DNA from: Chiloscyllium plagiosum
Lineage: Eukaryota
Length of the DNA: 55,935 bases
Assembly (NCBI RefSeq): GCF_004010195.1
Contig: NC_057718.1
Span: forward strand, 79,260,496-79,316,430
Direction of reading: 5' to 3'
This document shows, piece by piece, positions 1 through 54,484 of this stretch (the first letter of the stretch is position 1; each line of letters begins with the position of its first letter). The notes under the pieces were generated by a model. The model saw nothing but the letters and a program-made list of their open reading frames with translations. It made no database searches and had not been told where the DNA came from. The position numbers and the translations under genes are program-made.

Positions 1-140
1 CCGGAGCACCCGGAGGAAACCCACGCAGACACGGGGAGAATGTGCAAACTCCACACAGTCAGTCGCCTGAGGCGGGAATTGAATCCGGGTCTCTGGCACT
101 GTGAGGCAGCAGTGCTAACCACTGTGCCACCGTGCCGCCC
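1..140 (-). mobile_element. tRNA-derived V-SINE (HE1-like shark SINE), 5' part; continues beyond the window start
   Basis: Minus strand reads GGGCGGCACGGTGGCACAGTGGTTAGCACTGCTGCCTCACAG...GGATTCAATTCCC (Pol III A/B boxes), then the V-domain TGTGTGGAGTTTGCACATTCTCCCCGTGTCTGCGTGGGTTTCCTCCGGGTGCTCCGG. Other copies occur in the window. Confidence 0.9.
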
Positions 141-142
141 AG

Positions 143-198
143 GTCGAACCTCCTAGTGGTTCCCCCCCGGTAACGGCCTGTAAGAGGAAGCTTTTGAC
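143..198 (+). ncRNA. HDV-like ribozyme core of the R2 5' end (P1 5' strand not present in the window)
   Basis: P2 GTCGA(143-147)/TTGAC(194-198); P3 ACC(148-150)/GGT(158-160) around loop TCCTAGT; pyrimidine P1 3' strand TCCCCCCC; GG(169-170) for P1.1; P4 CCT-GTAAG-AGG; candidate catalytic C191. Matches the R2 ribozyme pattern ACCTCCTCGTGGT..CCC..GGTA. Confidence 0.7.
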
Positions 199-663
199 AG
201 GGAGGCAATTTTAAATTGTCTAGGGGTTGTTTTAGTCTGGTTTTATCAGTGGTTTTACCATCGATTTTATCCTTGGTTTTACCGGTACTCTACGCCACTG
301 GCAGTTTTATTGTTTCTCCCTGTCTTTTGAGCAGTACTCTGACCAGGCCGGCGAATACGACCTCAGAAAAGATACGAGACAGCTGGTGACCATTCGGTCT
401 ATATTAGAAACAAAATTTGGCAGCGGCGATTATGGCCAATACCAAAAATTCCAGTTGGGTGGGAGACCGGGTAAATAACCACCCCGCATGGTTGCTATTG
501 GCAGCATCATGCGCAAAATGTGTAGACCAAAAATGGACTGGACAATCCGTCTCGATGCAGACAGAAGAGACTAAGGATTATTCCGGCAAGGCTGTCCTCG
601 GGCAGGCACGAGGAAGCCATTAATATCGTCCAGAATGATCAGGACGCAAGTCGAAGAGAATGA

Positions 664-3600
664 CTAGTAGAGAAGGCCCCTCTGCAGTCGAGTTCATTTA
701 ACAGCCGGACAATTTTTAATTCGAATTTTAACGGGCCATTTGATTTTAGTCGATGTGGAGAATCAGAGAGAGGCGAGGAGAGGTATGAAGGTAGAATTAT
801 CCACCCAATAATTAGGGAAACCGATAAAATAGAGGTAATAATTAAATACCCGGTAGTTAATTTTAATTGTAATTATTGTAATAAGATTTATAACACTACG
901 GGCAGGTTTAGGCAGCATTTAAAGATATGTAAGGGAATTAAATCAGTTAGTTAGAGTTAGATGTAGTAAATGTGAGTGGGAAGGGAATTACCAAGCCGTA
1001 GCACGCCACTATCCTAAATGTTCTAAGAATGAGAATAATGGTAATAGTAATAGTGATAATACTAATACTAATACTACTAATAAGGAAGGAGAGTTAGAGA
1101 AACGATACCAATGTGAATTATGTCCTTTAAAATTTAAGACAACCAGAGGATTGGGGCAACATGAAAGACATGCTCATCCCATTTTAAGAAATGAGAAGAG
1201 GAAGAGAGGAACGGTAGAGAGTAGGAATAAGATGGAAAATAAGGAGGGTACTAAGAGGGGAATATGGTCTCATGAAGAGGTGGAAATGTTGCAACGACTA
1301 GAAGTAGAATTTAGTGGCTGTAAAAATATTAATAAAGTTATAGCTGAGAAATTAGGTACTAAAACGGCAAAACAAATCTCAGATAAAAGGAGGTTATTAA
1401 ATAAGCAAGGTAAAAGTCACGATAACGGTAAAGGTATAGATCAAGAACTGGTTCTTAATGAGTGATAGTGATGAAATGGATAATAGTGATCAGGAGATAA
1501 ATAGGGAAGTAGAGGAAGAAAGATTAAATGGAAAGAGAGATCAAGATAGTAGTATTATTATGGATAGAGTAGACTATAAGAGCAAGTCACTAACAGAATT
1601 AATTAAAATAGTAGAGGATGATATGGGAAGGAATAAAGGTATTAGTCAGGAATTTGAGAATATAATGGATATGATAATGGATAAATTGGGAACGAGTAAG
1701 GAGGGTGATAAAGGTAAGAAGGAGACTCATAGTAAACGAATAGGTTTGAAGCAAAGGGATAGTGGACTAAGAATGAAGAGGAAGGAAAATAAGGCTAAGA
1801 GAAGGTATAGTAGAAAGAAAGGTAAATTTAAAGAAATTCAGGTCTTATATAAAACGAAGAGGCAATACCTGGCAGGAACCCTAATGGGGGCTCCAGTTAG
1901 ATGTGAATGCCCCCTAAGTAAAGAAGATTTAGAAGACTACAATAAAGAAAGATTAACTAACTCTAATGATAAAAATAATTTGAGAGGTTTTGCCAAATAT
2001 AAAAGGCAAGGGGAGGGATCGGTGAATAGGACTCTGACAGGTCCTGTGACAGTAGAGGACGTTAAGGCGATGGACGTAAAAACTGCTGCAGGGCCAGATA
2101 GGGTAACACTGAAGGAGATAGTGAAGATATTTAATAAAGATAATACAGTACTTCCTAGAATATATACCCGATTTCATCCAAATAGTATAATACCGGATCA
2201 AATGAAAATAAGTAGAACTGTATTGATTCCCAAAGTGAGCGATGAAGACGGGTTGAAGGATATTAATAATTGGAGGCCAATAACTATAGGGCCAATTATG
2301 CTCAGAATATTTACTAAAATTATCGCCAGTAGACTAAGTAAAGTAGTAAATCGGAATAAAAGACAAAAGGGCTTTATGGCTGGTGTAGCAGGTTGCGAGG
2401 AAAATATCAAAATTCTGGAAAATATTATTAATGGGGATAAAACGAAAAAGAGATTTAGCGGTAGTTATCGTGGATTTAGCAAAAGCGTTTGACACAGTGG
2501 GCCACAAATTAATTATAATAGCTCTTAAAAGACTCCAACTTCCGTCAATATTTATTAATTTGGTTACAAATTTATATGATAATAATTTTACTCAAGTGGA
2601 AGGTTTTAAAAGTAAAACTGGAAAGATTAAAATTTTAAGAGTGGTTAAGCAAGGTGATGCATTGTCGCCGATTCTTTTTAATATTGTAATAGACCCTCTG
2701 ATAAGTACCATCGAAGAGAAGGAGAAAGGAATATTTTTAGGGATAGATAGGAATAGCTATCACTGCGTAACATTAGCGTTCGCAGACGACATAGCGTTAG
2801 TTAGCCAACCGTATGATAGTATGGTATATAATCTTAAACTTGTAGAAAAATTTTGTAAAAATACGGGAATGGAGGTTAATATGAAGAAAACGAAAGGATT
2901 TTACTTTACATATAAAAATAAGACATTTATATATAATGATAAAATTAACTGGAAGTTAAATGAAGGGAGCTTATAGTTTATAGAGCCAGGTAGTACGGAT
3001 AAATACTTCGGTGCCAAGATAGATCCGTGGATTGGCGTAGGCCAATCAAACTGGGAAAGCCAATTAGATATATGGTTAGGAAATTTAAAAAGATCCCCCT
3101 TAAAACCAGTTCAAAAAAGTAGAAATGTTAAAAACATATTTTATTCCTAGACTATATTATTACTTAGTTTTATCTGAAGTCTCTATTAATTATCTTAATA
3201 AATTAGATAATAAAATAAAAAGTGTAGTTAAAGAAATTTTACACCTCCCGCAATCCATCACGGATGGAGTATTATATGCCGTGATGGTGGCCTTGCTTTA
3301 AATAGACTGTCAACCTTTATTCCAATCTCAATAATGAGGAAGTACGGGATGCTACAGAAATCGGAGGACGAAATTTTGCATGCATCATTTCGTTTCGAAG
3401 GTGATAGTGTGGCTGCAAAAATGTATAAATTATGTAAACTTAGTGATGGAAAACATCTGGAACCCAAATATTAATCGGCGATTAGGTGAAGAGGATACTA
3501 TCAGGGAAGGCAGTGAAGATGAGATGGAAGAGTTTGGCAGTACCAACTATGCTAACTGGAGAAGTATTGAGATACAGAGATGGATGGCCCTCCCCTGTCA

Positions 3601-4277
3601 AGGAGCTGGGGTTCATTATTATAAGAATGATAGTCAACCATCCATTGGATATACTAAGTTACAATATATGAAGACATCTAAAGTTATCAATTCAATTTTA
3701 TTGAAAACAAATTTATATCCAACAAGAGTGTCAATGTCGTATGGAAGGCCATGTAATATCAAGAATTGCAGAAGGTGTAATGATACATCAGAAACGTCTG
3801 CGCATATCTCAGGGTGGTGCCCTTATGTTAAAAACATGAGCATCAAGAGGCATAATAGAGTTGCAGAAGAATTAGTTAAGTATGTAAGGAAGAATGGGTG
3901 GACAGTATATATAGAACTGAGAATTAAAGACGAAGCCGGGAAACTTTGGATACCGGATCTAACTTTTAAGAGAGAACACCAGGTTGTTGTTGTGGATGTA
4001 ACTGTTAGAACAGACCTTCAGATCAACTCGCTTGAATCAGCATGGGAAGAAAAGACAAACAAGTATAAACATCTAGGAAAAGAGATAATGGACCTCATTG
4101 GCAGAGGAACGATATCCTTTTATGGTTTTGTGATAAGAGCCAGAGGGAAGTGGTTCGAAAAGAACACAGAGTTGATGAAAGACCTCGGGTTCTCGAAATT
4201 TAAATCTTTTGCAGAGTATCACAACCCTTGTTTTGTCTTTGACCCTTGAACTTTTACGGATTTTTATGGACTCTTAA
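664..4277 (+). pseudogene. Disrupted R2 ORF (ZF-Myb-RT-CCHC-RLE polyprotein); true start uncertain
   Basis: Pieced together from ORF-track segments 1151-1465, 1458-2492, 2431-2976 and 3380-4249 plus hand translation. Frameshifts near 950, 1460, 2440, 3118, 3278, 3480 and 4220; in-frame TAG at 2974-2976; R2-like C-terminus LELLRIFMDS* ends at 4277. Confidence 0.85.
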
Positions 4278-4670
4278 TTTCTCCTATTGACGTTATTTAA
4301 TAATGTTTTAATAAGTTTTAGGTATTTTAATAGTTTTAATTAATGATTTTAATAGATTTTAATGGTTTTAATAATAAAACTATAGTGTTTTAGATCACTT
4401 AGTTAAAAAGGTGGTGGGTAGATAGGGGTGTTAAAAATTAAAGAGCACGCTTCACACAACAAATGATGAGCAGTCGCCTAGTCTAACAATTGATAAGCCC
4501 AGCTCATCCCTTGCCTCGCTGAGATTATGATTCACAATGTATTTTACCGTTCCCTTAAGATCATTCCGGCTGTGGTTTCGCTGGATAGGGGTATCCATGC
4601 GTCGACAAGCGACGTTAAGATCTCGAAAAGGACATGATCCATCGCGTATGGCGAGTGCATAAAGTTAGCC

Positions 4671-5440
4671 AAATATGCCACCTAGTTCTAAACTCACCCA
4701 GGCTAGTTGAAAGACCTTTGCTATTTACCTTATCTATGCCCTTCATGATTTATAAACCTCCAAGATCACCGCTCAACCTCCTACACGCCAGAGAAAAAAG
4801 TCCTAGCCCATCCAGCCTCTCTTGATAACTCAAGCCCTCTACACCCAACAAGTTTCTCTTTTCTGAACACTCTACAATTTAATATTATCCTTCCTATAGC
4901 TGGGTGACCAGAACTGTATACAGTGCTTCAAAAAGCAGCCTCAACATCCTGTACAACCTCAACATGACATCCCAACTCCTATACTCAAAAATCTGAGCAA
5001 TGAAGACAAGCTTTCCTTCTTAACCACCCGGTCTACCTGTGATGGAACTTTCCCAAAAAAAAACTAGTGTATTTCTCTATTCAACAACACTACCAGAGCT
5101 CTACCATTAACTGTTTAAGCGCTACTCTTATTTGCCCTACTAAAATGGAAAACCTCACATTTAATCGGAATTAAACTCCATCTGCCACTCTGCAGCCCAC
5201 TAGCCTAGCTGATCCCATTGTTATCTTAAATAACCTTCATGTTGACTAGATCACCAATTTGTGTAATCTACAATCATATTAAAAATGCCTTCTAAATTCT
5301 CAACCAAATCATTTTAGAATACTGAACAGTGGACCCAGCACCAATTCCCGCAGAACACCATTGGTCATAGGCCTCCAGTCTGAAAAACAACCCTTTGCTA
5401 CCACCCTTTATCTCCTAGCATCAAGACAATTTTGTATCCA
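4671..5440 (-). mobile_element. CR1/HER1-type LINE fragment abutting the R2 3' end
   Basis: TATGCCACCTAGTTCT...GACCAGAACTG...CCTGTACAACCTCAACATGAC...TAAACTCCATCTGCCAC is colinear with the CR1 copies at 15.8-16.6 kb and 51.2-52.0 kb. Confidence 0.8.
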
Positions 5441-5757: not shown

Positions 5758-5927
5758 CCCCAAAACACCAAATCTTTCACAGAAGTCCCATCCACAAAGG
5801 AAATCAATCTCATAGTTATGATTGAGAATAACTATGGCATTCTCTTTACCGTACTTAATATAATTCCTTTGGTCAGTATAGAGGGTACATTCTGTACCTG
5901 ACCACCATTCCAGCAACCACACCAATT
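5758..5927 (-). CDS. AGPAT4: 1-acylglycerol-3-phosphate O-acyltransferase 4 (LPAAT delta), second coding exon (170 bp)
   Basis: Encodes (Q)LVWLLEWWSGTECTLYTDQRNYIKYGKENAIVILNHNYEIDFLCGWDFCERFGVLG with the acyltransferase NHxxxxD motif. Acceptor ttctttaaatttcAG, donor GGG|GTAAGT. Phase matches the upstream exon (C|AA = Gln). Confidence 0.92.
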
Positions 5928-5955
5928 CTGAAATTTAAAGAAAAACAAAAAAAAT

Positions 5956-9560: not shown

Positions 9561-10139
9561 CATCTAAAGGTAATCGAATTAGTTAGGACAGAAATGTCTA
9601 TTTGATTTGAGTTGGTCTTAAGCTGAAGTTCCAGTGCAATCAATAGCAGTACTGCAAAACTATTTAAACTTCCACAAATTTGCACATCCTGGAAGCATGG
9701 CACTTTTCTCAATTCAATTTCACCAGTCATTTTTCTACTCTGCAACAAAGCATACTGTAACAAAAAGAACTGCCTATTAAAAAGTTACTCTCCCTTTTCA
9801 ATAAAGAGTGCATTAATTTTCAATATACTCTGATAATCAAACTTGGGTTTGCAGCCTTTCAGGAGTAGACTGCCCTTTGAGTCTATGAAATCGGTTTACT
9901 TTATGGCAGTTTTAAAAGCTCTGGCTACCAAATTGGTTTGAACATAATTTCATTCACAACACGCAAATTAAACAAAAAGCATCGATTGGGTTAGAAAAGA
10001 GATAATACCATAAAAATGGCAAATTTATGATTGAAATTCACTCTACTTGTCGATCTTCTTCCCTTATTGTCAGGCTAGATGCAGCAGCATGCTGGAATAT
10101 ACTTTGGTAAATGGCATTACTTCACATCATTTACATGTC

Positions 10140-11762
10140 TCAAAAGTTGATCAGGAAGCTGATTACCATTAGAATGGTGCTAGAAAAGCACAGCCGGTCA
10201 GGCAGCATCCGAGGAGCAGGAAAATTGACGTTGAGCAAAAGCCCTTCATCAGGACTGAAAGCAGGGAGCCTCCAGGATGGAGAGATAAATGGGATGGGGG
10301 TGGGGGTGAAGGTGATAGGCGTGGGGGAGTGAGAGGAGACAGCGCGCGCGAGAGAGAGAGAGAGCGCGAGAGCAGCGAGATGAGGAAACTGAAGTCCACA
10401 TTCATGCCCTGGGGTTGAAGTGTTCTGAGGCAGAAGATGAGGTGTTCTTCCTCCAGGCGTTGGGTGGTGAGGGAATGGCGGTAGAGGCAGCCCAGGATCT
10501 GCAGGTCTGTCAGTCATCGGCAGAGTGGGAGGGAGAGTTGAAATACTGGGCCTCTGAGCGGTGGGGTTGATTGATTAGATTAGATTCCCTATAGTGTGGA
10601 ACAGGCCCTTTGGCCAAACCAGTCCACACCGACCCTCTGAAGAGTAACCCACCCAGACCCATTTCCTTCTGACTAAATGCACCTAGCACTACAGGCAATT
10701 TAACATGGCCAATTCACCTGACCTGCACATGTTTGGACTGTGGGAGGAAACTGGAGCACCCAGAGGAAACCCATGCAGACACTGGGAGAATGTGCAAACT
10801 CCACACAGACAAACAGTCACCCGAGGCATGTGCAGGTGTTCCGGAGATGTTCCCTAAAGTGCTCTGTGAGAAGGCGTCCAGTCTCCCCAATGTAGAGGAG
10901 ACTGCATCGGGAGCAACAGATACAATGAATGACATTGGTGGGTGTGCAGGTGTAAAAAAACTTTGATGGATATAAAGGCTCCTTTGGGGCCTTGGATGGA
11001 GGTGAGGGGGGAGGTATGGGCACAGATTTAGTGATTCCGGTAGTGGCAGGGGAAGGTGCCAGGAGGAGGGGGAGGTGGCAGATGACAGGGTTTATGCAAA
11101 AGGTTGGTGTGATGGAACTGGTCCTCATGGGAGCAGATACGGTGGAGGCAGAGGAATTGGGAATACGGGGTAGCATTTTTGCAGGAGGTAGGGTAAGAAG
11201 AGGTGTAATCCAGTAGCTGTGGGAGTCGGTGGGTTTGTAAAAAATGTCAGTGTCAAGTCAGCCGTCATTGATGGAGATGGAGAGGTTCAGGTGAATTTAA
11301 AAGTCGGGGTGGAATGTTGATGAATTGCTCAACCTCCTCGCGGGAGCAAGGAAGAGGTGGGGAGTGGTGCTGGCGTAACTACGAAAGATGGACTATTCTA
11401 CGTAGCTGACGGAGACAGGCATAGCTGGGCGGAGGAAGAGGTGCCCATGGCTACCCCTTTGGTCTGGAGAAAGTGGGAAGATTTGAAGGAGAAATTGTTA
11501 AGGGTGAGGACCAGTTCAGCCAAAAGAATGAATGTGTCAGTGGAAGGGTACTGTGGGGGATGTCGGGAGAGGAAGAAAAGGAGGGCTTGAGGCCCTGGTC
11601 ATGGTGGATGGAGGTGTAGAGGGATTGGATGCCCATGATGAAGAGGAGGCATTAGGGGCCAGGGAAACTGAAGTCTTGGAGGAAGTGGAGGGCATGGGTG
11701 GTGTCTCGAATGTATATGTGGAGTTCCTGGACTAGCAGGGATAGGACAGTATTGAGGTAGGT
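10140..11762 (-). mobile_element. Penelope-like element (RT + Cys-containing GIY-YIG), degraded, interrupted by a SINE
   Basis: Minus-strand fragments MGIQSLYTSIHHDQGL and NNFSFKSSHFLQTKGVAMGT (PLE RT), NVIHCICCSRCSLLYIGETGRLLTEHFREHL (GIY-YIG). Terminal CCTGATGAAGGGCTTTTGCTC hammerhead-like remnant near 10230-10253. Confidence 0.85.
10573..10827 (-). mobile_element. V-SINE (HE1-like) nested in the Penelope-like element
   Basis: V-domain GGGAGAATGTGCAAACTCCACACAGAC and (AATCT)n tail. Confidence 0.85.
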
Positions 11763-13993
11763 CATCACAGCCAAGACACAATCCTATCAGCTTTATATGT
11801 GTAGTGTTTAATGTGAATTGTTAAAATGGCGAAGGGATGGGTTCCGCAGAATGAGATTACTACTACACTGAAAAAAGAAAAAACAAACTAGAAAACCCTT
11901 AGAATAACAAAGAGGATTTCAACCTAGAGCTATCATAGTATGCATAGCTTCGTTTCTCCACTTGCAACTAATAATTTTTTATGGAATTATTTCAGGAACT
12001 TTAAAAATCAAGGAGTTTCTTGCCAATAGCACACATTCAAAACAAGATACTAAAATGGAGACTAGTTTGCCTAACAAAAACTGTTGCATTTTTGTGAAAA
12101 ATCCATTGTACATTAGAAAGCACGTTACCACCAAAAGCAGTGTTGAGGTTAGACTGGATAAAAGGGGAGATCATTCTCCTTAAGGAAACATTTTCAAAAT
12201 CAGGAGCAGGCTGAATAGAACAGAACAGATGAGGGAGAAAACTGTTCCTGCTTGTAAAAAAGCAAGAAAGAAGAGAGAGCGCGCAACAGGACAGATTTTA
12301 AAAAGTGATTTGTAAAAGAAGCAAGGGTGATCGGAAAAGAAAAAGACTATTTTCATTCAGCAAGTAGTTAGGATACAAAATGCCTCACCTGGAATATAGT
12401 GGAGCAAGGATTAATTAAGGCTTTTTACAAAAGGCACTAGACAATATTTGGATAAAAATAACATACAAAAAGGTATGTGGGGGAAAAAAAAAGGAGATTG
12501 GTACTACTTAATGTTATTTGAAGATCTAGTGCTGGCACAATGAGTTGCTGCATTATGAACATATCAGTCTTCTGCAAAGAATATTTTTCATTAATTCACT
12601 GCTTAACAATTCTGAACTTTAGCTAGTTGAGGATGTAAAATATTGATGCAGAGCTAGATGTGATCTGAAAGCAATTGAAATTACCTTTGAGTGGCTGTTT
12701 AACTTCCAACTTTAATTTCCACCTATCCAGCTGTTTCATTCAATTAACAGAGCTTTGTTTACAATCCAAGACTATCAGCAACAACCAACAAGTTCAGGAT
12801 CCAGAGGAAAAAAAAGAGTTTGTCTATGCATCAACCTCCTATGTTGAGCGGAATCTGTTTCGCTTTTCAAAACAAAGTGTTTTTCTTTTCAGAAGGGATG
12901 ATCTGTAGATATATTCAAGTCCATTTCCTAGGGTGGTTCTCATGGTTGGGGGAAAGAAACCAAAATACATTGTTTTGGCATAGGGTTGTATGACAACTAA
13001 ATAGAGATAGGCAGAGAGACATTTGTATATGCAGAGTGCACAACCTCAGGAGATTGTAAAATGCTTTACAATCAATAAAACACAGTCGAAACAGTTACAG
13101 TTATAACACAGGATACACAACAGCAAGGTACAAAACATTATGGAATATTTATGCAAAAACCAAAAAGACCAGAGAGGGCCTTTACAACAGATTCTTTTCT
13201 CAGATCTTTCAGCAAGGGGATGATAACTAAACAGCAAAGCCCGAAAAGAAAGCTTTCCAGTTCAGCAAATTCAAAAGCAACAGACTGCCTCCTGCCCCAT
13301 AATCCAAGTCAGCATTAATTCACTTTTTTTGTTCCTTTTTTTCTGGCTGGCCAGCACTAGGCCTCCTTTGATTGACCAATTCAGATGAATCTCAGTCGTC
13401 GACAACATCTCAGTGCTGTATCATCTAGTGTCTTTGGAGTAGACATTAATTTGTATTCTCTTCCCAATCGAGTTAGAGTTCCCAAAAGCAAACACATTCT
13501 TTTATTTTTGTTCAAAGTTCAATTCTATATTATCTCATTTTTGGTTTTGACTGGAGTTGCAAAAGTAAAAAGAAAAATAATAATGGTCTCAACAATATGT
13601 AGGAGCAAGGTGACATTACCAAATGTCATCACATCTTTTAGAGCTTCTTTGACACTTACAATCACTGGTCAATTTAGAATTGAACTATTTTTAAATTAAG
13701 TAGCAAGGAAGACCTTACAATGTGAAAATCTAAGTCATATGTTTTATAAAGACTTTATTCTGTGATCAGTGCCACCACTGGGTGGAGCACTTCACCAATA
13801 TGCACAAAATTGAAGTGACGTGGTGGTGGTTTCCTGAAAACATCAATTAAATTATTTCTACAGCATAATGGTGGCATTTTTATCATCTAAATCACTTCCT
13901 CATGAGAAGTGAGAACTACAGTAGCTGTAGAAGCCAGACTCATCTTTCCTCCACCAAACCTCTCGTAATCAAACTATTCTAAGCCTCAAACTA

Positions 13994-14190
13994 GACCCTC
14001 CAAAGTGACCCACCCAGACCCATTTCCTTCTAACTAATGCACCTAACACTATGAGCAATTTAGCATAGCCATTTCACCTGACCTGCACAACTTTAGATTG
14101 TGGGAGGAAACCGGAGCACGCGGAAGAAACCCACACAGACACGGAGAGAATGTGCAAACTCCACACATACAGTCGCCAGAGGCTAGAATC
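13994..14190 (-). mobile_element. V-SINE (HE1-like), partial
   Basis: Same V-domain and body as 1-140 and 10573-10827. Confidence 0.85.
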
Positions 14191-15814: not shown

Positions 15815-16620
15815 TTAGAGTCATAGAGTCATGGAGATGTAAAGCGTGAAACAGACCCTTCGGTCCAACCCGTCCATGCCGACCAGATATCCCAACCCAG
15901 TCTAGTCCCACCTGCCAGCACCCGGCCCATATCCCTCCAAACCCTTCCTATTCATATACCCATCCAAATGCCTCTTAAATGTTGCAATTGTACCAGCCTC
16001 CACCACTTCCTCTGGCAGTTCAATCCATACGTGCCACCCTCTGCGTGAAAACGTTGCCCCTTAGGTCTCTTATTTCTTTCCCCTCTCACCCTAAACCTAT
16101 GCCCTCTAGTTCTGGACTCCCTAACCCCAGGGAAAAGACTTTGCCTATTTATCCTATCCATGCCCTTCAATTTTGTAAACCCTCTATAAAAGGTCACCCC
16201 TCAGCCTCGGACGCTCCACGGAAAACAGCCCCAGCCTGTTCAGCCTCTCCCTATAGCTCAAATCCTCCAATCCTGGCAACATCCTTGTAAATCTTTTCTG
16301 AGCCCTCTCAAGTTTCACAGCATCTTTCCAATAGGAAGGAGACCAAAATTGCATGCAATATTCCAACAGTGGCCTAACCAATGTCCTGTACAGTTGCAAC
16401 ATGACCTCCCAACTCCTGTACTCAATACTCTGACCAATAAAAGGAAAGCATACCAAATGCCTTCTTCACTATCCAATCTACCTGCAACTCCACTTTCAAG
16501 GAGCTATGAACCTGCACTCCAAGGTCTTTTTGTTCAGTAACACTCCCTGGAACGTAACATTAAGTGTATAAGTCCTGCTAAGATTTGCTTTCCCAAAATG
16601 CAGCACCTCGCATTTATCGG
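15815..16620 (-). mobile_element. CR1/HER1-type LINE 3' end
   Basis: ORF fragments EVMLQLYRTLVRPLLEYCMQFWSP, RTRGHRFRV; (CTATGACT)-type tail at 15815-15832. Confidence 0.9.
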
Positions 16621-16771
16621 ATTTCCTTCATTCCATTACCATACACCTATTATTTGCGATGTCAGTCTCAGTCATTGCAAACCACATCTAACCACTAGCT
16701 ATAATGCACTCTCTCATGTCTTGCAGATTCCACTAATCTCCCCATGGCACTGAAGAAAGGTCCAACACCTC

Positions 16772-16869
16772 AGAGCGAGGGGCGGGCGAGGGGGGCCGAG
16801 AGCGAGGGGGGCCGAGAGCGAGGGGGGCCGAGAGCGAGGGGGGCCGAGAGCGAGGGGGGCCGAGAGCGA
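16772..16869. repeat. GC-rich minisatellite, 16-bp unit GAGAGCGAGGGGGGCC
   Basis: Four perfect units plus partial or degenerate units, read directly. Confidence 0.9.
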
Positions 16870-19800
16870 AGCAGATCAAAAAAAAAGTACCTTGGTTGTG
16901 TGTCACTGTCAGCTTATACATAAAAATGCTCCTCAACCTGGCTGTCATGGTGAAGAACCTGCATAGACACTAACCTAAAGTACCTCTGAGACAGAAGAGG
17001 CTCAAAAGGATGGAAGTCTACACTAAAAGCTTACACCATCTGAAAATAGGGGGCAATGTGTATAGCTGACAATGGGTTACGCTGACACCTTTGAACTTTT
17101 GTTCAACATCTTCAATATTTGATTCCTACCATGATGAAAAAGGTGCAACTGTTAAAAAAAACGTTGCTTAACAGTGGCTGAGCCAGAGACGTGCAATGCT
17201 ATAAAATGGCAAGAGAATCGGCAGCCTGCCTGCTTTACATACAACTTTGTTTCCCTTTCAAAGCCTTACGATCAGTGGTTGCTGCAACCCTCTCCCTCAG
17301 TCATTGCTTACCCAACCGCTGTGTGCTCACAGCCATTTCACCATTCCACAACTGTAACTGCATCACAATGAAAGGTGATAATGCTCCTCAGTGGCTTTCA
17401 GCTATAATCTGAAATGTGCCAGTGAGCCCCCAAACTTCAACATCTTCTTAGTGACCCATCCCAAAGGTTTCACACTTCCAAGGCTGCACCCAACCCTTCA
17501 ACATGCACCTACAACTGCCTACCTTTCTCACCTAGTGCCTGGCATATGAGATGACCATGCCTGGTATGGTCATGCATTTCTCCACCTTAACTCGCAAAAC
17601 CAGGGTTCTCCTGACTGGGATAACCAGTCCTCCCATAATACACCCTTGCCAGCAATGCTTTACTGTACCCTGTCCTTGGAGATCATGCTTGCCCACAGCA
17701 GCTGCAACATAGTTGGTGGAAAGCTGGTGATCATCAAGTATATTGTATACAATCTTCAAGAATGATGTCAAGCAGTCCAGGGTCCACTTGCAGATTAGGC
17801 TAGTGATCTAAACAGCAAGAGCAAGGTAACTGGAAGGAGGAGTACATGCCAGGAGTGGAAGCACAAATTCAAACAGAAAACTTTGTTTACCACTGAGTTG
17901 CTATCCCAGAGCCATACCAGAAATCCTTAAAAAACAGATATACATGCTGCTGAGACCCTCTGGAAATCATTTTGAACAGTTGGTGTCCACAGTTATGATC
18001 ATAGCAGTCTGAGTTTGCAAACAAACATACCGAGATTTCACAACATCATCTAAAATCTTTGACAAAAGTTTTGGCATCAACCATTCAATGCTATACGGAT
18101 GGGTTCTGGTGGACAGATAAGTCAATTCCTGCTCTAACCTGAAAGGATGATTTCAAAAGCTCTATGCAAGATGGTTTGCCAAATTAGAGCTGGACTCAAT
18201 GCTCCCAAACATTGAAAACAACTATTTTGGTAAGCTTTGTAGTGCATGAAGCATTTAGTCACATATATCCATCAGCCTTCTGCTGTAGCCAGTTCCTGAG
18301 ATCATCGGACTTCTCTGCATCAGAAACTGAGGTTACACTCATTGGCCAATTGAGCTGGCATCTGTATCCTCTTCTCCCTTCCCAAACAGGGCATATCCTT
18401 TGGTTCCTGTGCATTTGTACCTGATGTTTTACCACATGTTTCTTCTTCCACCCAAATAAATATACCTTACTTTTTGTCATCAACTCAAAGGCCAAGTAAT
18501 CATATGCAGTCACCTTTGCTATCTTTCTCCCCCCTCTGGAAGAGCTTGTTCTAGTTGAGTATCTGAAATGAAAGTAAAAGTTGTGTGGTAGGGGAGAAGA
18601 GAAAGAAAGTTGTGTGTTGACATCATCCAAAGCTAGTCAGATAGGAAAGAAAAAGATTGTGGGTAAAAAGTGAAAGAATTAGTTATGCAGAAAGCACTGC
18701 ATAATCCCTCCAGCACTGATGAGGATGACCATGATTTCAGTGATGCCCTCCCCTGACATTTAGCATTATCCTTGCCACACAAGTCCTAATATATGAACAG
18801 AATTGTCCTTCATTATGTACCCATGTTCCATGTACTGCTGCAAGCAAAAGAGCAGTGTGTCATTGAGTGCTTTACTGTGTGCTTACAGCTGTCAGCAAGA
18901 TCCACCTGAAAGGGCTCACAACAGTCTTAAGCAGGAAGTAAAAACATCAAAGGAATGAGTGCTACCTTGATAGAAAAATTGTTGATAGGTGTGTGTTAGA
19001 GATGGTCTGAATTAGGCCGTGGAGGCAGCCAGTGGTGCAGTAGGTAAGTTTTGCGATTTAAAGACTAGATTGAATACATGTTCTTGGAACAATGGACCTT
19101 TGCAGATTCTTGAACACCTCTTAGTTGGGATCTCCTGAATCTCTCCACCCCTATCATCATGGGGCAAAAAAAAAAAGAGACTTCTCCAGGCCTTGAACAA
19201 AGGCCACTAATGTTTCTGGACAACCCTACCATTCCATATCATCTCACACACAGCCTCGTTTTAATCTTACAGCAAAGATTTAGTTCATGTATGGCAAGAA
19301 AAACAGTTTAAAAACAAACAGATTACTGCAGGAACGCCAATCATCAGGAACCAACGTCTTACCCTCTCCCCAACCCTAAATTCGTAACAAAGTAGGTTTA
19401 ACATTGATTTGAGAGTCAGTAAAGTAAAAAGCTGATTTGTTTTTAAACTTTAAATAGTTGTTCAGCACAATGAATGTTTGTCTCAGTATGCACGCACCTG
19501 GAAGGTACATAGTCCTATATTACATAGGAGGCTCAGATTTGATCAACAACAACAAAAAAATCATTGCATCTTTTATTCAATCCTACTTTGCAAAAGCACA
19601 TTCCAGAGTGAATTGGATGACAGTCCACTAATTTTCTACCACAGCCAACTGGAGGGGATTGTGCAGAGAGAATGGATTCCCACCCTAGCTTCCACTCACT
19701 GTTCTTTTAGGATGCACTATTGTTTATTCCACAAGCTAATTATATGCCAGAGCACAAAGCCCTAAAAAGGAATAAAAATATCTTCAATGTGATCAGTGAG

Positions 19801-43547: not shown

Positions 43548-44291
43548 ATTAGAGACACAAACTTTACATATATGAAGAAAGAGGAGAAAAGATGTGGGGG
43601 TTATTTCAACCTTTGTCCACAGGTGCTGTCAAGTTAAATTTTTTTTTTAAATTGAAGTACTTATGCCCATATTCTAGCAGCTGCAGAACTTTGCTTTCCC
43701 ATTCAAAGTAAAATGCATCAATGTTATACATTTGCTCAGAATGTTCAATTAAAAATATTTGAACCTTTAATTCAGAACCTTTTGCTGAACAAAAACAAAG
43801 GACATTGAGCTGAATCTTAGTTTTTAGGCCAAATGCAAATTGCATCAAGTTTACTGGAGTAATTATTACCACAAGGCCAAACAAGCAAGCGTGAGTTACA
43901 TCTTATCAAACTCACCATGTTAAAAGGCATTTCACCCCTCATGGCAAATATCACATTTGACATTCAAAACATCTTACTGAGCACCATTCATGGAGCAACT
44001 CACTACTGACCAGCATATCCAACACAGTACCATATTTAAAAGGCTATCAAGCACACTGGAAGCATGGTTCTAGACTTTTGGCCCATACAAAATGCAGACA
44101 AGGACTGAAACAACGCCCTGCTTTGCAGGTCTGGACTTCAAGCTCCTGCAAAATGGGTAGGCAGAATTTTCTCTTTTGTTCCACCCCCCAGGACCAGTGA
44201 AACCTGACCATTCCAGCCTAGACAGAGATTGCCATCCATGTTGAAGCAATCCAGCCATCTGAGAGGAATGCTTGGCAATGAAGACAGACAA

Positions 44292-45375
44292 AAATAAGTG
44301 AGGACTGCAGATGCTAGAGATTAGAGTCATGAGTGTATTGCTGAAAGGCTTAGCAGGTAAGGCAGCATTCAAGGAGCAGGAGATTTGACATTTTGGGCTT
44401 GAGCCCTTCATCAGGAATGAGGTTGTGGGCCAGGGGGCTGAGAATGCAATAGGTAAATGAAGGTGGAGGAGAACGAAGGTGATACACCGGAGAGGAGGGT
44501 TGAGCAGATAAATGGTAAAGAAGATAGACTGGTCAAGAGGGCAGTGCTGAGTTGGAGGCTTGGGACTAGGATACAAAAAAAAAGATGGTTTGGTGGGGTG
44601 GGGGTGCAAAACAGAGGAAACTGGTTAAATTTTCATTAATGCCATGTGATTGCAGAGTCCCAAGGCTGGGGACGAGGCATTCTTCCTCCAGGCATCAGCT
44701 GATTAGGGTTTGGTAAATGAGGAGGCCTGGACCTGCATGTTCTTGGCGAAGTGGGAGAGGAAGTTAAAGTGTTAAAGTAGTCAGGTCAGTCACTGGTGGG
44801 TGCAGGTGTCCAGAGATGTGCTCCGAAACAATCCAAGATAGGATGCCAACTTGCAGATAATTTCAGAGAACATCTCTAGAACACCCATACCAACCAACCC
44901 CACTGTCCAGTGGCTGAATACTTCAACTCCCCCTCCTAATCCACCATAGGACATGCAGGTCCCGGACCTCCTCCATCGCCAAACCCTAATAACCGGACGC
45001 CTTGAGGAAGAATGCCTCATCTTCCGCCTTGGCACTCTGCAACCACACAGGATGAACGCGGATTTCACCAGTTTCCTCATTTTCTCCTTCTCCCACCTTC
45101 TCCTAGTCCCAAGCCTCCAACGCAGCACTGCCCTCTTGACCTGTCCATCATCTTTCCCATCTATCAGTTTCTCGCTGACCTATCAATTTCTCCCCCACCT
45201 TCATTTACCTATTGCATTCTCTGCTACCTTCCCCCCAACCCCTCCAGCTCCACCCATTTACCTCTTAGACCCCCTATACACAAGCCTCATTCCTGAAGGG
45301 CTCATGCCAGAAACGCTGATACTCCTGCTTCCTGACCTGCTGTGCTTTGCCAGCACCACATTCTCAACACTGAAG
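44292..45375. mobile_element. Penelope-like inverted insertion (family of 10140-11762)
   Basis: Minus arm about 44292-44830, plus arm about 44855-45375 (RLEEECLIFRLGTLQPHRMNADF, GIY-YIG C-terminus). Possible degenerate TSD GAAGACAGACAA/GAAGGCAGTCAA. Confidence 0.8.
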
Positions 45376-47009
45376 GAAGGCAGTCAATGTTATTCTGCCC
45401 TGTGCCAGCACAAGTGCCACCATTTCCCAGATACCTCAATTTCGGCTTCTGCACCCACCTCCCAGTAATGTTCATGCTCTACCACTCTAATGTATGCAAC
45501 AGGTTCCCTATTCAACCTCACCCAGCCTGGGGCACCACTGACTCAGCACACTTTTCTGTACTGCCTATTCACACACTTCAGCAAGCTGCATCACCAATAA
45601 TGTGTTACCCACTTTCATCTTCGAAACCACATGCTTCTCCATTATTCTAGAAGGAAAAACAGCCCACAACAGGACAAGAGGAGTCAACAGGGCAGTGTGC
45701 TGCCTCTCATTCAGCATCTTGCTCTGTAGGAGGATAATGACTAAAACCTTGCCTCAAGCAGGGCCTAGACTGATATTGGAAGTTTAATCTTGGAAGCTGT
45801 GCCAGGATCCCAAAGTGAAGACTACCCTCATTGATAGATCAAAAGCCTGATAACTGTGGCAAGCTTCCTGGTTGTATGTTGGCACTAAATAGCAGGACAA
45901 GACTCTAGTTACATGAAGGAAGTACCTCTGAGTGAGGGCAATGCAAGAGAGCTGGGCTGGAAGCATTCAGTTGAGTTCAGAGTAAGTGAGCATTATGACA
46001 GTGAGTAAAGAGCCTACAGATGCAGCCTGATCTAAACCAAGGGTTTGCTGAGCATCCCTAAGCATAAAGCATCCTTGCTGCAACATTAACAATAGTTGCA
46101 GGTCCAGCTCAAGATATAGCACAGATATGTAGTGTCCTGCAGGTGAATCAGATGAAACATGAAAGCTCAGAGGCTGGCACGTCAAATACAATGTCCATAG
46201 ACATGTGGTGGGTGGGGCTATCGCCCATCCCTATGAAGTATGCCCAAGATATCAGTGCCTGGTATTCAACATGGAAGTCCTTTGTGCAAATTGAATCCAC
46301 CAACCATCCAGCTTTCCCCAGTGCTAGCTTGCAGATTTGTTTTTAAAACATGTCTGAATAGGTCTTCTGGCCCAGAGGTTGAGATATTACTGTGCTACAA
46401 CACCCCAGATGATGGCTAGTTTGTACGGAGTGTTTGACAAGATCACAGCACATGGCATGTCAGACTGTTAAAACACCTTGTTAACAAGAAGTAATACTCT
46501 CAATTGGAGCATATAAGATGTGGTGAAAAAAAAAATCTAATGCTGATGGCCTCCTGGCTCAGTGCTAGGGACCAGTTAAGTTCTACTTGTCATGGACATA
46601 CGTTATAACATTTCCAAATTGGTGGACTAAAATAGATTACAAGATTCAGCAAGATGACCTTGAAGTGACGATGGCCCTCCCAAACATCTTGTCTGATACT
46701 ACCATTAATCATGCCATGCATAAAAAAATTCTGTATATTTTGCAGTTTTGTATCTTGCACAGATGGAAAATGTTACTGCCAGAGTTTGCTTACCAACTAA
46801 ATTACTCTCCTCTCACACAAAATAAATATTGTTGTTCCATTTAAAGTGTATTTCTTTTCAGCTTTCTTAATAAGCACAAGACAAAAAGCTTCAACAAAAT
46901 GCATGTTTCCAGCAGTTAGAGAATGTAAACTTTTTCAATGACCTCTGTTGCAGATATACCCAACTTGTAATGCTCATGTAATACCAGTATAAATGGCAAA
47001 CTATTAAAA

Positions 47010-47225
47010 CCATAAAATGAAATTCCTACAGTGCAGATAGAAGCCATTTGGCCCATTAAGTCTGCATACCCTCCAAAGAGTATCCCAACGAAACCTAGCC
47101 CCCTACCCATATCCCCGTCATCCCCACATTTATCATGGTCCATCTTTGGGCTGTGGGAGGAAATCCCGAGCACCTGGAAGAAACATTCAGACACAGGGGC
47201 GATTGTGAAAACTCCACAGAGAATG
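47010..47225 (-). mobile_element. V-SINE-like element, degraded
   Basis: CTGTGGGAGGAAATCCCGAGCACCTGGAAGAAAC...AAACTCCACAG. Confidence 0.65.
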
Positions 47226-54143: not shown

Positions 54144-54484
54144 GGGTGGCACGATAGCTCAGTGGTTAGTACTGCTGCCTCAGCACCAGGGACCCAGATT
54201 CCATCCTTGGGCAACTGTCTGCATGGAGTTTGCACATTCTCCCAGTGTCTGCACGAGTTTCTTCTGGGTGCTCCAGTTTCCTCCTATAGTCCACAGATGT
54301 GATGGTTAAGTGGACTGGGCAATTTATCATAGCCAGAGTCTAGGGAAAAGGGGGCTAGATTGATTAACCCTGCTATAGTGATTAACCCTCCATGGCTATA
54401 GGGAGGGTGGGATACCTCTAGGGAGGGCTGGTGTGGACTTGATAGGCTGAATGGCCTGCTTCAACACTGAAGGGAATCCTGTGA
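54144..54484 (+). mobile_element. V-SINE (HE1-like), roughly full length
   Basis: GGGTGGCACGATAGCTCAGTGGTTAG A-box, V-domain GGAGTTTGCACATTCT, tail GAATGGCCTG..CACTG.AGGGA. Confidence 0.85.

What the first reader, a model, noticed from the sequence alone, without database searches (positions are those of the whole stretch)
141..4674. Near full-length clade-A R2 retrotransposon outside rDNA, in an AGPAT4 intron
Seen: complete R2 domain order (3 zinc fingers, Myb, RT, CCHC, PD..D RLE), both UTRs, and no rRNA gene in the window. The flanks are a SINE and a CR1 fragment; the element is antisense to AGPAT4. Established: R2 normally inserts at one site in 28S rDNA (TTAAGG/TAGCCAAATGCC), and only some lineages are known to have lost or changed specificity. 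Inference: this is either a rare ectopic full-length insertion of an rDNA-resident shark R2, or one copy of a shark R2 lineage with relaxed or new targeting. Either case bears on R2 target evolution and R2-based gene insertion tools.
Basis: partly seen in the sequence, partly recalled or inferred. Interest (0 to 1): 0.9.

Follow-up and report, generated by a model that had tools for sequence, protein, structure and literature searches.

The report
Stray, decayed R2 retrotransposon copy
A broken copy of the R2 jumping gene, which normally lands only in ribosomal RNA genes, sits in an intron of the AGPAT4 gene of a cartilaginous fish; it is one of dozens of such strays in this genome, and many still carry a few letters of the ribosomal gene they came from.

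Summary
The element is real. It is a structurally full-length A-lineage R2, on the + strand and antisense in an AGPAT4 intron, with no rRNA gene in the window.

- Position 141 is not the R2 5' end. A 319-nt SINE-like repeat sits inside the 5' UTR, and the first 95 nt of R2 lie upstream of it on unplaced contig C87935.
- The copy is dead: 8 frame changes and 2 premature stops.
- The 3' junction keeps TAGCCAAAT (4666-4674), the first 9 nt of 28S downstream of the R2 site.

It is not a one-off:
- The R2 3'-end motif occurs 49 times in this genome.
- I found 17 distinct non-28S 3' junctions plus one amplified event, beside 14 copies in 28S.
- 10 of 18 ectopic junctions start with at least 3 nt of 28S (P about 2e-8).
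- The flanks otherwise do not resemble 28S, and no alternative target is shared.
- Ectopic and 28S-resident copies interleave in the tree.

Best reading: a fossil of off-target target-primed reverse transcription from a 28S co-transcript. This has happened repeatedly in this genome. It is not retargeting.

The kind is known (non-28S R1/R2 copies in flies, R2NS families). It is moderately interesting as a natural vertebrate record of R2 off-target insertion.

The parts
1..140 (-). Head part (140 of 319 nt) of a SINE-like repeat inserted into the R2 5' UTR after R2 arrived. The rest of it lies upstream of the window.
   Evidence: C87935 shows the whole repeat between the two R2 pieces. (319 nt long; other copies at window 10573-10827, 14008-14189, 54144-54321 and 47141-47221). 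ARAGORN finds no tRNA in it.
141..431 (+). Distal part of the R2 5' UTR. The first 95 nt of R2 lie outside the window, upstream of the SINE, on C87935.
   Evidence: No Rfam ribozyme hit.
432..4277 (+). R2 ORF remnant. It aligns to residues 1-1269 of a 1289-aa Chiloscyllium punctatum R2-like protein, with 8 frame changes (3>1>2>3>1>2>1>2>3) and in-frame stops at 661 and 2974.
862..930 (+). Zinc finger 3 (C-x2-C ... H-x3-C).
   Evidence: weak C2H2 hits, residues 67-87 of piece 664-954. (generic C2H2 fingers, best E 6e-5).
962..1177 (+). Zinc fingers 2 (962-1021) and 1 (1106-1177).
   Evidence: aligned to the fingers of 9nl3_A and 9dou_A, E 5e-25..
1256..1408 (+). Myb-like DNA-binding domain.
   Evidence: PF00249, E 0.0036. 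(aligned to the R2Tg Myb region).
2256..2916 (+). Reverse transcriptase domain, with the active-site motif FADD. It is split by a frameshift near 2440-2453.
   Evidence: RVT_1, 2e-25..
3766..3819 (+). CCHC zinc knuckle.
   Evidence: aligned to R2Tg. Sequence.
3841..4080 (+). Restriction-like endonuclease (PD at 3953-3958, D at 3995-3997, then K).
   Evidence: E 1e-44 to 9nl3_A and 9dou_A..
4278..4664 (+). R2 3' UTR, ending ...GTGCATAAAG(T).
   Evidence: 43 matches in this genome..
4666..4674 (+). TAGCCAAAT: the first 9 nt of 28S downstream of the R2 site, carried to this non-rDNA locus.
   Evidence: identical to the start of the 28S flank in 28S-resident copies. (not part of the flanking repeat's consensus). 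(statistics).
4675..5300 (.). Downstream flank: an old interspersed repeat, 65-70% like four other copies in the window. It is probably the antisense 3' part of a CR1-like LINE (recalled motif, not tested).
5758..5928 (-). AGPAT4 exon, the context that makes the element intronic and antisense.

Best explanation
This is a fossil of an off-target (ectopic) retrotransposition of a 28S-specific, A-lineage R2.

Proposed sequence of events:
1. A donor R2 resident in 28S rDNA was co-transcribed with the rRNA (established for R2; not shown here).
2. Its RNA kept a short tail of downstream 28S sequence.
3. R2 protein bound the 3' UTR and carried out target-primed reverse transcription (TPRT) at a nick that was not the 28S site. 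The nick lay inside an old repeat in an AGPAT4 intron. Priming started within or next to the 28S tail, so nine 28S letters were copied in at the 3' junction.
4. The cDNA was nearly complete; only about 8 nt of the 5' end are missing. About 250 bp of the target repeat may have been lost (inferred).
5. With no rDNA promoter the copy was inert. It has since gained about 5% private substitutions, 8 frameshifts, 2 stops and a SINE inside its 5' UTR.

The same accident has happened many times in this genome, in every R2 subfamily sampled.
For: R2 IDENTITY
- Searches support it.
- In the protein tree, all three window pieces join a shark R2-like protein (100*), then other sharks, a turtle (99*) and a vertebrate clade (97*).

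CANONICAL-SITE RELATIVES
- The copy on C1 is 90-92% identical to the window copy. It has 28S on both sides, at least 1397 nt upstream and 1509 nt downstream.

THE 28S STUB
- TAGCCAAAT lies at 4666-4674.
- Homology to the flanking repeat reaches leftwards only to TATGCC, and the repeat's consensus there does not read TAGCC.

THE PATTERN IS GENERAL
- Of 18 distinct ectopic 3' junctions, 10 start with at least 3 nt of TAGCCAAATGCC (P 2.5e-8), 8 with at least 4 and 5 with at least 5.
- Longer 28S tails of 55, 76 and 218 nt also occur.

THE TARGETS ARE NOT 28S LOOK-ALIKES
- Upstream flanks match 28S at 13.5 of 36 positions, against 12.9 +/- 1.7 in controls.
- Downstream positions 13-40 match at 10.1 of 28, against 10.4 +/- 1.6 in controls.

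TREE OF COPIES (30 rows)
- The window copy sits in a 100*-supported group of 5 with one 28S-resident copy and two ectopic ones. Its end branch is 0.049.
- 28S-resident and ectopic copies interleave in other subfamilies too.

OTHER
- The copies have no poly-A tail and no target-site duplication was found. That fits R2 rather than L1-type mobilisation.
- Precedent: non-28S R1 insertions in Drosophila carry up to 14 nt of downstream 28S, explained there by 28S sequence on the transcript's 3' end (PMC2718515, passages read).
Against: - No empty site is available. Part of the stub, at least the AAA(T), could be target sequence used as microhomology rather than RNA-borne.
- 5 of 18 ectopic junctions show 0-1 nt of 28S.
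- The roughly 250-bp target deletion rests on aligning 45 nt of upstream flank to a 30%-diverged repeat.
- Whether the nick was made by R2 protein or pre-existed cannot be told.
- The 5' junction is known only from an unplaced contig. On C9 the bases just upstream of the window read N.
- rDNA arrays are usually under-assembled, so the share of ectopic copies says little about how leaky targeting was.
- The census is capped at 40-150 scored matches per search.
Confidence: 0.8

Rival explanations
1. The R2 lineage of this fish has truly relaxed target specificity. It is a partly non-specific R2 that inserts genome-wide as a normal part of its life cycle, and the window copy is an ordinary product of that.
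For: - There are many ectopic copies in every subfamily sampled.
- The RLE-domain search gave at least 155 matches on 39 of the contigs numbered C1-C49.
- Ectopic sites show no 28S likeness.
- One more non-28S 5' junction was seen on C20.
- Non-specific R2 families exist in flatworms (PMC5035012, passages read).
Against: - 14 copies sit at the canonical 28S site, some in the same subfamilies as ectopic ones.
- 28S stubs on 10 of 18 ectopic junctions show that the donors were in 28S.
- All sampled unique ectopic copies are old, with end branches of 0.025-0.12.
- Old rDNA copies are expected to be lost and rDNA to be under-assembled, which inflates the apparent ectopic share.
- The long open frames cannot be trusted. 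At least one of them runs into an N-run.
Confidence: 0.13
2. Another LINE's reverse transcriptase (CR1-, L2- or L1-type) copied an R2-28S transcript in trans.
For: - The insertion lies within a LINE-like repeat, and the genome is rich in such elements.
- 28S-R2-28S fragments with truncated 28S flanks exist on several chromosomes.
Against: - There is no poly-A tail, no LINE 3' tail and no target-site duplication at the junctions.
- The junctions fall at the exact R2 3' end or a few 28S letters beyond it, as expected if the R2 3' UTR was recognised.
Confidence: 0.04
3. A DNA-level relocation of an rDNA fragment (an orphon), or an assembly chimera, placed R2 here.
For: - R2-bearing 28S fragments are scattered on chromosome-scale contigs.
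- An N-run abuts the window on C9.
Against: - Only 9 nt of 28S are present on one side and none on the other. Both ends coincide with the R2 termini.
- The copy differs by 8-10% from every other copy, so it is not a collapsed repeat.
- A 9-nt overlap is shorter than any usual assembler word (inference).
- C87935 independently repeats 1784 nt without a mismatch.
Confidence: 0.03

Closest known systems
Vertebrate A-lineage R2 elements: R2Tg of zebra finch and turtle R2 (solved structures 9dou, 9nl2-9nl4), and the Chondrichthyes R2s catalogued by Hassan et al. 2026 (PMC13188248)
   Same: - Same domain order: three N-terminal fingers, Myb, RT, CCHC, RLE.
- 40-50% protein identity to R2Tg-type chains over all four pieces searched.
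- 55-70% identity to a bamboo-shark protein.
- Sister copies sit at the TTAAGG|TAGCC site of 28S.
   Different: - This copy is not in 28S.
- It is frameshifted and split by a SINE.
- The published pipeline kept only hits flanked by 28S (Methods section read), so strays like this one were not described there.
Non-28S insertions of R1, and rare non-rDNA R2 copies, in Drosophila (Stage & Eickbush 2009, PMC2718515)
   Same: - Authentic 3' junctions outside 28S.
- Up to 14 nt of downstream 28S copied in.
- Insertion often into repeats.
- Explained by 28S sequence on the transcript's 3' end (passages read).
   Different: - Those data are for R1. Fly R2 copies outside rDNA are described as few and often incomplete.
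- Fly R1 target sites shared 4-9 bp with the 28S site and made target-site duplications.
- Here the element is R2, many copies are full length, no duplications were seen and the flanks do not resemble 28S.
Non-target-specific R2 families R2NS-1_SMed and R2NS-1_CSi of flatworms (Kojima et al. 2016, PMC5035012)
   Same: R2-clade elements found at many non-rDNA sites (passages read).
   Different: - Those families have lost 28S targeting and have young copies more than 98% like their consensus.
- Here canonical 28S copies coexist in the same subfamilies, ectopic junctions carry 28S letters, and the sampled strays are old.
Off-target insertions by engineered R2 systems in human cells (review PMC13708176)
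   Same: Rare integration outside 28S by an otherwise highly site-specific R2 protein (passage read).
   Different: The review says those off-target sites resemble the rDNA target. The natural strays here show no such resemblance beyond the junction stub.

Membership tests
R2 non-LTR retrotransposons | A single ORF with N-terminal zinc finger(s) and Myb, a central RT, and a C-terminal CCHC plus PD-(D/E)xK restriction-like endonuclease. | tested here: met
   All domains are present in order, but the frame is broken 8 times.
R2 non-LTR retrotransposons | Insertion at the conserved site of 28S rDNA (TTAAGG|TAGCC). | tested here: not met
   This copy has a non-28S flank on both sides and the window holds no rRNA. 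The family meets the feature: 14 copies have 28S at the 3' junction and 4 of 30 loci from the 5' search have it at the 5' junction. So this is a stray copy of an R2 family, not a member of a differently targeted family.
R2 non-LTR retrotransposons | The protein groups with R2 rather than with other LINE clades. | tested here: met
   In the tree (27 rows, rooted on an APE-type LINE) the window pieces fall inside a vertebrate R2 clade (97*). Solved R2 chains score far above L1 ORF2p. Named NeSL, R4 or Utopia references were not at hand, so exclusion of those clades was not tested directly.
R2 non-LTR retrotransposons | A self-cleaving HDV-like ribozyme at the 5' end. | tested here: inconclusive
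   No Rfam hit in the window or in an uninterrupted 5' end. The 5' G-run and a C-run about 130 nt downstream could pair, with a short hairpin between them (alignment), which resembles the recalled ribozyme layout. No covariation test was run. In this copy the G-run is missing and the SINE separates the parts.
R2 non-LTR retrotransposons | No poly-A tail and no regular target-site duplication. | tested here: met
   The 3' ends read ...GTGCA followed by 5-6 nt and then flank. No duplications were found in the 9 of 10 ectopic flank pairs that could be scored.
R2 lineage A (three-finger type) | Three N-terminal zinc fingers and closer kinship to R2Tg-type than to R2Bm-type proteins. | tested here: met
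   Three finger motifs are present. For the C-terminal piece, E is 1e-44 to R2Tg-type chains against 1e-10 to R2Bm. Hassan et al. caution that finger number alone does not define a lineage (abstract and passages read).
Non-specific R2 (R2NS-type) | A family whose copies insert without 28S specificity, with no copies at the canonical site. | tested here: not met
   Canonical 28S copies occur in the same subfamilies, and 28S stubs occur on ectopic copies.

The most novel reading that the evidence does not exclude
The A-lineage R2 of this cartilaginous fish is a leaky integrator. It uses 28S as its home but inserts full-length copies genome-wide at sites with no likeness to 28S, needing only a few bases of pairing between the 28S tail of its RNA and a nicked DNA end. 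It does so at a rate far above that known for insect R2. The genome would then be a large natural data set of vertebrate R2 off-target events, and would show that site choice at the priming step can bypass DNA recognition by the N-terminal domains.
Probability: 0.25. Interest if true: 0.7.

Novelty: new member of a known kind. Interest (0 to 1): 0.42.

Why it matters
The locus itself is a dead transposon in an intron and probably has no effect on AGPAT4.

The value lies in the pattern it belongs to. A vertebrate genome holds dozens of datable, full-length R2 insertions outside rDNA. Their junctions show a short 28S tail and no target resemblance. That is direct natural evidence on how a supposedly site-specific R2 goes astray, which bears on safety assessment of R2-based gene insertion tools and on how target specificity is kept or lost.

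It also warns annotators on three points:
- R2 hits in elasmobranch assemblies are not reliable markers of rDNA.
- Pipelines that keep only 28S-flanked copies hide this population.
- Element boundaries can be misread where a later SINE splits the 5' UTR.

Tried and rejected
TOOL FAILURES AND REFUSALS
- The Rfam scan of 28S-flanked loci failed internally twice. I measured 28S extents by BLAST against the C1 copy's flanks instead.
Full-length comparison of all copies was therefore not done. The trees use the 3' 1.9 kb only.
There is no read-level check of the junctions and no test in organism B.
- The look-up of sequencing runs listed no RNA holder.
- Two literature searches were rejected because a term was under 3 characters.

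SEARCHES THAT FOUND NOTHING
- The guessed 5' ends of the copies with 55-, 76- and 218-nt 28S tails were not at the fetched places. Whether those copies are ectopic on their 5' side stays open.
- The guessed 3' end of the C20 copy was not found.
- No target-site duplications. Three of 13 pairs (L058/L025, L048/L066, L046/L061) could not be scored because a motif was not found.
- No 28S likeness of ectopic flanks.
- No tRNA in the SINE by ARAGORN.
- No ribozyme or R2 RNA family by Rfam.
- Earlier findings of the scan gave nothing.

REJECTED READINGS
- I rejected the 13-locus shared flank as evidence of retargeting. R2 and flank are equally diverged, and two members share one 5' truncation point.
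- I rejected the long open frames as signs of intact copies. The C24 case runs into an N-run.


Full report
WHAT IS IN THE WINDOW

Between 141 and about 4664 on the + strand lies R2-like sequence. Read stop to stop under the standard code, it falls into overlapping ORF pieces: 664-954, 923-1465, 1440-2492, 2389-2976, 3104-3301, 3232-3474 and 3338-4249.

Four of these pieces (923-1465, 1440-2492, 2389-2976, 3338-4249) were compared with solved structures. All hit the same chains best: 9dou_A 'R2Tg retrotransposon ORF', and 9nl3_A and 9nl2_A 'R2 retrotransposon protein'.
- N-terminal fingers plus Myb: E 4.6e-25.
- RT fingers region: E 1.9e-35.
- RT palm: E 5.8e-34.
- CCHC plus endonuclease: E 1.3e-44.
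- R2Bm chains score 3e-3 to 8e-19, and L1 ORF2p about 1e-7 to 1e-14.

Pfam gives RVT_1 at 2.2e-25, plus weak C2H2 and Myb hits. The most N-terminal finger hits only generic C2H2 fingers.

A 1289-aa protein of Chiloscyllium punctatum (P0001, 69% identical in the endonuclease part) aligns to the window from the ATG at 432 to residue 1269. The frame path is 3>1>2>3>1>2>1>2>3, with in-frame stops at 661 and 2974 and the natural stop at 4275-4277. The copy therefore has every R2 domain in order but cannot encode the protein.

BOUNDARIES

The 3' end reads ...GTGCATAAAG T TAGCCAAAT ATGCCACC. In copies that sit in 28S, the element ends ...GTGCA plus 5-6 nt and is followed by TAGCCAAATGCCTCGTC.... So R2 ends at 4664/4665, and 4666-4674 are the first nine letters of 28S downstream of the R2 site.

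- In 27 of 30 loci returned by a search with window 100-640, R2 sequence continues upstream of the homolog of 141. The three exceptions are this locus twice and one truncated copy.
- Unplaced contig C87935 matches window 1-1784 without a mismatch.
- It shows the order: flank, 95 nt of R2 5' end, a 319-nt SINE-like repeat in reverse orientation, then window 141.
- The SINE therefore inserted cleanly into the R2 5' UTR.
- On C9 itself the 1400 bases before the window read N. This is a gap or a withheld stretch, and I cannot tell which.
- Other copies begin with (T)GGGGGGATGTGACTAC. This one begins at TGTGACTAC, so about 8 nt are missing.
- Total R2 length here is 95 + 4524 nt.

CONTEXT

No Rfam family reaches threshold anywhere in the window, and nothing R2- or rRNA-like appears at E up to 5 in 1-5200.

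The exon at 5758-5928 (-) is 95%, 93% and 91% identical to AGPAT delta (AGPAT4) of Mobula hypostoma, Carcharodon carcharias and Scyliorhinus torazame. With the Mobula protein as query, exons for residues 1-60 and 29-121 lie to the right of the element, and those for 115-173 onwards lie to its left on C9, all on the minus strand. The element is therefore intronic and antisense.

The host is an elasmobranch. Shark versus ray is not settled by these hits.

The downstream flank is an old interspersed repeat with four other copies in the window, 65-70% identical. I recall its reverse strand as the C-terminal part of CR1-type LINEs, but did not test that.

IS IT R2?

In a protein tree of 27 rows rooted on an APE-type LINE, the three window pieces, entered separately and unjoined, behave as follows:
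- They all join the Chiloscyllium protein (100*).
- They then join two Scyliorhinus proteins and an unnamed one (100*), then a turtle protein (99*).
- They then join a clade of bird, teleost and bichir proteins (97*).
- Arthropod and nematode proteins that sources name after R2 fall further out.

Named NeSL, R4 or Utopia references were not available. More telling, close DNA relatives sit at the canonical site. The copy on C1 is 90-92% identical to the window copy and has at least 1397 nt of 28S upstream and 1509 nt downstream.

THE FAMILY IN THIS GENOME

The assembly (3.56 Gb) could be searched.
- The 3' UTR has 43 matches at 72-90% identity, from 40 scored of 116 candidates.
- The 24-nt 3'-terminal motif, with up to 2 mismatches, occurs 49 times against 0 for the reversed control.
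- The endonuclease domain has 155 matches, from 150 scored of 594 candidates, on 39 of the contigs numbered C1-C49. Most have stops.

I read 3' junctions at 47 distinct places that hold the motif, plus four loci with a diverged motif and one further locus. They fall into these classes:
- 14 lie in 28S. The 28S tails run from 55, 76 and 218 nt to the end of the gene.
- 7 are followed directly by another R2 5' end, that is, head-to-tail arrays.
- 13 share one non-28S flank.
- 17 have distinct non-28S flanks. L029 and L030 share a flank and count once.

The 13-locus group is one insertion that was later duplicated.
- The R2 part and the flank are equally about 94% alike over 650 and up to 1000 nt.
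- Two members share the same 5' truncation point.

Of 30 loci from the 5' search:
- 4 have 28S upstream.
- 5 have an R2 3' end upstream.
- 4 share a flank.
- 13 have distinct non-28S flanks, including this locus.
- 3 could not be read.
- 1 repeats this locus.

THE JUNCTION SIGNATURE

I took the 17 distinct ectopic 3' junctions plus one representative of the duplicated group, 18 in all. With four offsets allowed for the slightly variable R2 end:
- 13 of 18 begin with at least 2 nt of TAGCCAAATGCC.
- 10 of 18 begin with at least 3 nt. Chance is 0.0625 per junction, and binomial P is 2.5e-8.
- 8 of 18 begin with at least 4 nt, and 5 of 18 with at least 5 nt.
- The window copy has the longest perfect stub, 9 nt.

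Beyond the stub the flanks are not 28S-like.
- Positions 13-40 match 28S at 10.1 of 28 on average, against 10.4 +/- 1.6 at control offsets (16 junctions).
- The 36 nt upstream of 14 ectopic 5' junctions match 28S at 13.5 of 36, against 12.9 +/- 1.7.

For the window copy, homology to the flanking repeat runs leftwards to TATGCC. The repeat's consensus before that point does not read TAGCC. So at least most of the stub came with the element.

No target-site duplications were found in the 9 ectopic flank pairs that could be scored, and there is no poly-A. Some ectopic 5' junctions are preceded by letters that match the 28S upstream side, most clearly CCTTAAGG in L050. The variable G-run makes this ambiguous.

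RELATIONSHIPS AND AGE

A tree of the 3' 1.9 kb has 30 rows. It uses the quick method with SH-aLRT support only, and five rows are under half filled.
- The window copy falls in a 100*-supported group of five, with the 28S-resident C1 copy, two ectopic copies (C4, C3) and a fragment.
- That group is unresolved inside. End branches are 0.03-0.05, and the window copy's is 0.049.
- In other subfamilies a 28S copy is sister to an ectopic one (L023 with L025, 99*), or basal to a group of ectopic ones (L013).

Ectopic insertion therefore recurred in each subfamily, and the sampled strays are old. I give no absolute date, because no rate was measured here. The SINE insertion is younger than the R2 insertion.

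MECHANISM

Shown:
- An R2 with exact 3' terminus and near-exact 5' terminus lies at a non-28S site, with nine 28S letters at its 3' junction.
- The same signature occurs at many other loci.
- The targets do not resemble 28S.

Established elsewhere:
- R2 lacks a promoter, and the protein nicks the target and primes cDNA synthesis from the nick (background of PMC13188248, passage read).
- Templates with a 3' tail complementary to the primer are used for R2 TPRT (same paper).
- For fly R1, non-28S insertions carry up to 14 nt of downstream 28S. This was attributed to 28S sequence at the transcript's 3' end annealing to the target (PMC2718515, passages read).

Inferred here:
- The template was a 28S co-transcript with a short 28S tail.
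- Priming took place at a non-specific or pre-existing nick, helped by a few bases of pairing.
- The cDNA was nearly full length.
- About 250 bp of the target repeat may have been lost.

A possible HDV-like ribozyme layout at the family's 5' end is a recalled resemblance only. It consists of a G-run pairing with a C-run about 130 nt downstream, with a short hairpin just before the C-run. Rfam finds nothing, and I ran no covariation test.

WHAT IS KNOWN

- R2 in Chondrichthyes was first catalogued by Hassan et al. 2026. Their pipeline annotated hits flanked by 28S (abstract, passages and Methods section 14 read).
- In 12 of that paper's 16 supplementary files, the terms 'non-rDNA', 'not flanked' and 'outside' do not occur. 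Four files were not searched.
- Kojima et al. 2016 reported an angel-shark R2 3' junction and two non-specific R2 families in flatworms (passages read).
- In Drosophila, R2 copies outside rDNA are few and often incomplete.
- A 2026 review states that engineered R2 systems show rare insertions at sites resembling the rDNA target (passage read).
- My three accepted searches turned up no description of dispersed full-length R2 copies in a cartilaginous fish. The library lacks most subscription journals, so this is weak evidence of absence.
- I recall, but did not see, older Bombyx work on R1/R2 insertions outside 28S and in vitro work on 28S sequence at the R2 RNA 3' end.

VERDICT

This is an ordinary kind of object: a dead stray copy of a known, 28S-specific retrotransposon family. 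Its boundaries are corrected here and it has a clear molecular scar of its origin.

The wider pattern is modestly new for vertebrates. It consists of dozens of strays with 28S stubs, R2-bearing 28S fragments on many chromosomes, and head-to-tail R2 arrays. It is useful as a natural record of R2 off-target insertion. It does not show retargeting.

LIMITS

- There is no read-level check.
- The 5' junction comes from an unplaced contig.
- The searches are capped.
- rDNA is probably under-assembled.
- No related genome was available for an empty site.

Noticed in passing
L044 and L042 (C94519:8498 and 13164, 4666 bp apart); also L043/L073, L047, L052, L076, L077, L079 (unplaced contigs): Head-to-tail R2 arrays with no 28S between units. 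An R2 3' end is followed directly by an R2 5' end, in several cases with a duplicated 14-nt piece of the 5' end at the joint. Seen at 7 distinct 3' junctions.
   Followed up: partly
L015, L016, L018-L022, L026-L028, L062, L063, L074 (C8 at 9.5, 32.2, 32.3, 35.5 and 53.7 Mb, plus unplaced contigs): One ectopic R2 insertion is present at 13 loci with the same flank. It belongs to a subfamily about 76% like the window copy. The flank looks to me like the antisense of another LINE's RT region, which was not tested. R2 and flank are equally about 94% alike, so this is a segmental amplification rather than repeated targeting.
   Followed up: yes
L046/L061 (C26:15.86 Mb), L065 (C1:10.80 Mb), L023 (C38), L069 (C27:12.28 Mb), L013 (C27:3.23 Mb), L067, L068, L070: R2-bearing 28S fragments are scattered over at least 7 chromosome-scale contigs (C1, C8, C16, C26, C27, C37, C38). 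Their 28S flanks are truncated: 55, 76 and 218 nt downstream, and 563 nt upstream. Some carry substitutions relative to one another. They could be rDNA orphons or retro-copies of unprocessed co-transcripts; which one is unresolved.
   Followed up: partly
L032 1-1401 (C9 just upstream of the window) and L031 (C87935): The window starts directly after a run of N on C9, in the middle of a SINE. Unplaced contig C87935 overlaps window 1-1784 perfectly and extends at least 1400 nt further upstream. It probably bridges that gap.
   Followed up: partly
L086/L087 (C24:16.488-16.494 Mb): An R2 copy with a well-preserved 28S 3' flank. The '1555 aa open frame' reported for it runs into an N-run, so the long open frames in that search table are not reliable signs of intact genes.
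   Followed up: partly
L053, L056, L057, L060 (unplaced contigs): Four R2 5' ends share one non-28S upstream flank, with a partial duplication of the R2 5' end at the joint. This is probably another amplified unit.
   Followed up: no
C12:85016559-85035048 (own genome): A paralogous AGPAT-like gene, 43-75% identical to the AGPAT4 query exon by exon, on another contig.
   Followed up: no
window 10001-12000, 16001-17000, 44001-46000: These stretches have G+C of 0.48-0.50 against a background of about 0.37. The first has strong positive GC skew. I did not examine them.
   Followed up: no
window 10573-10827, 14008-14189, 47141-47221, 54144-54321: Further copies, 78-86% identical, of the SINE-like repeat that splits the R2 5' UTR.
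   Followed up: partly
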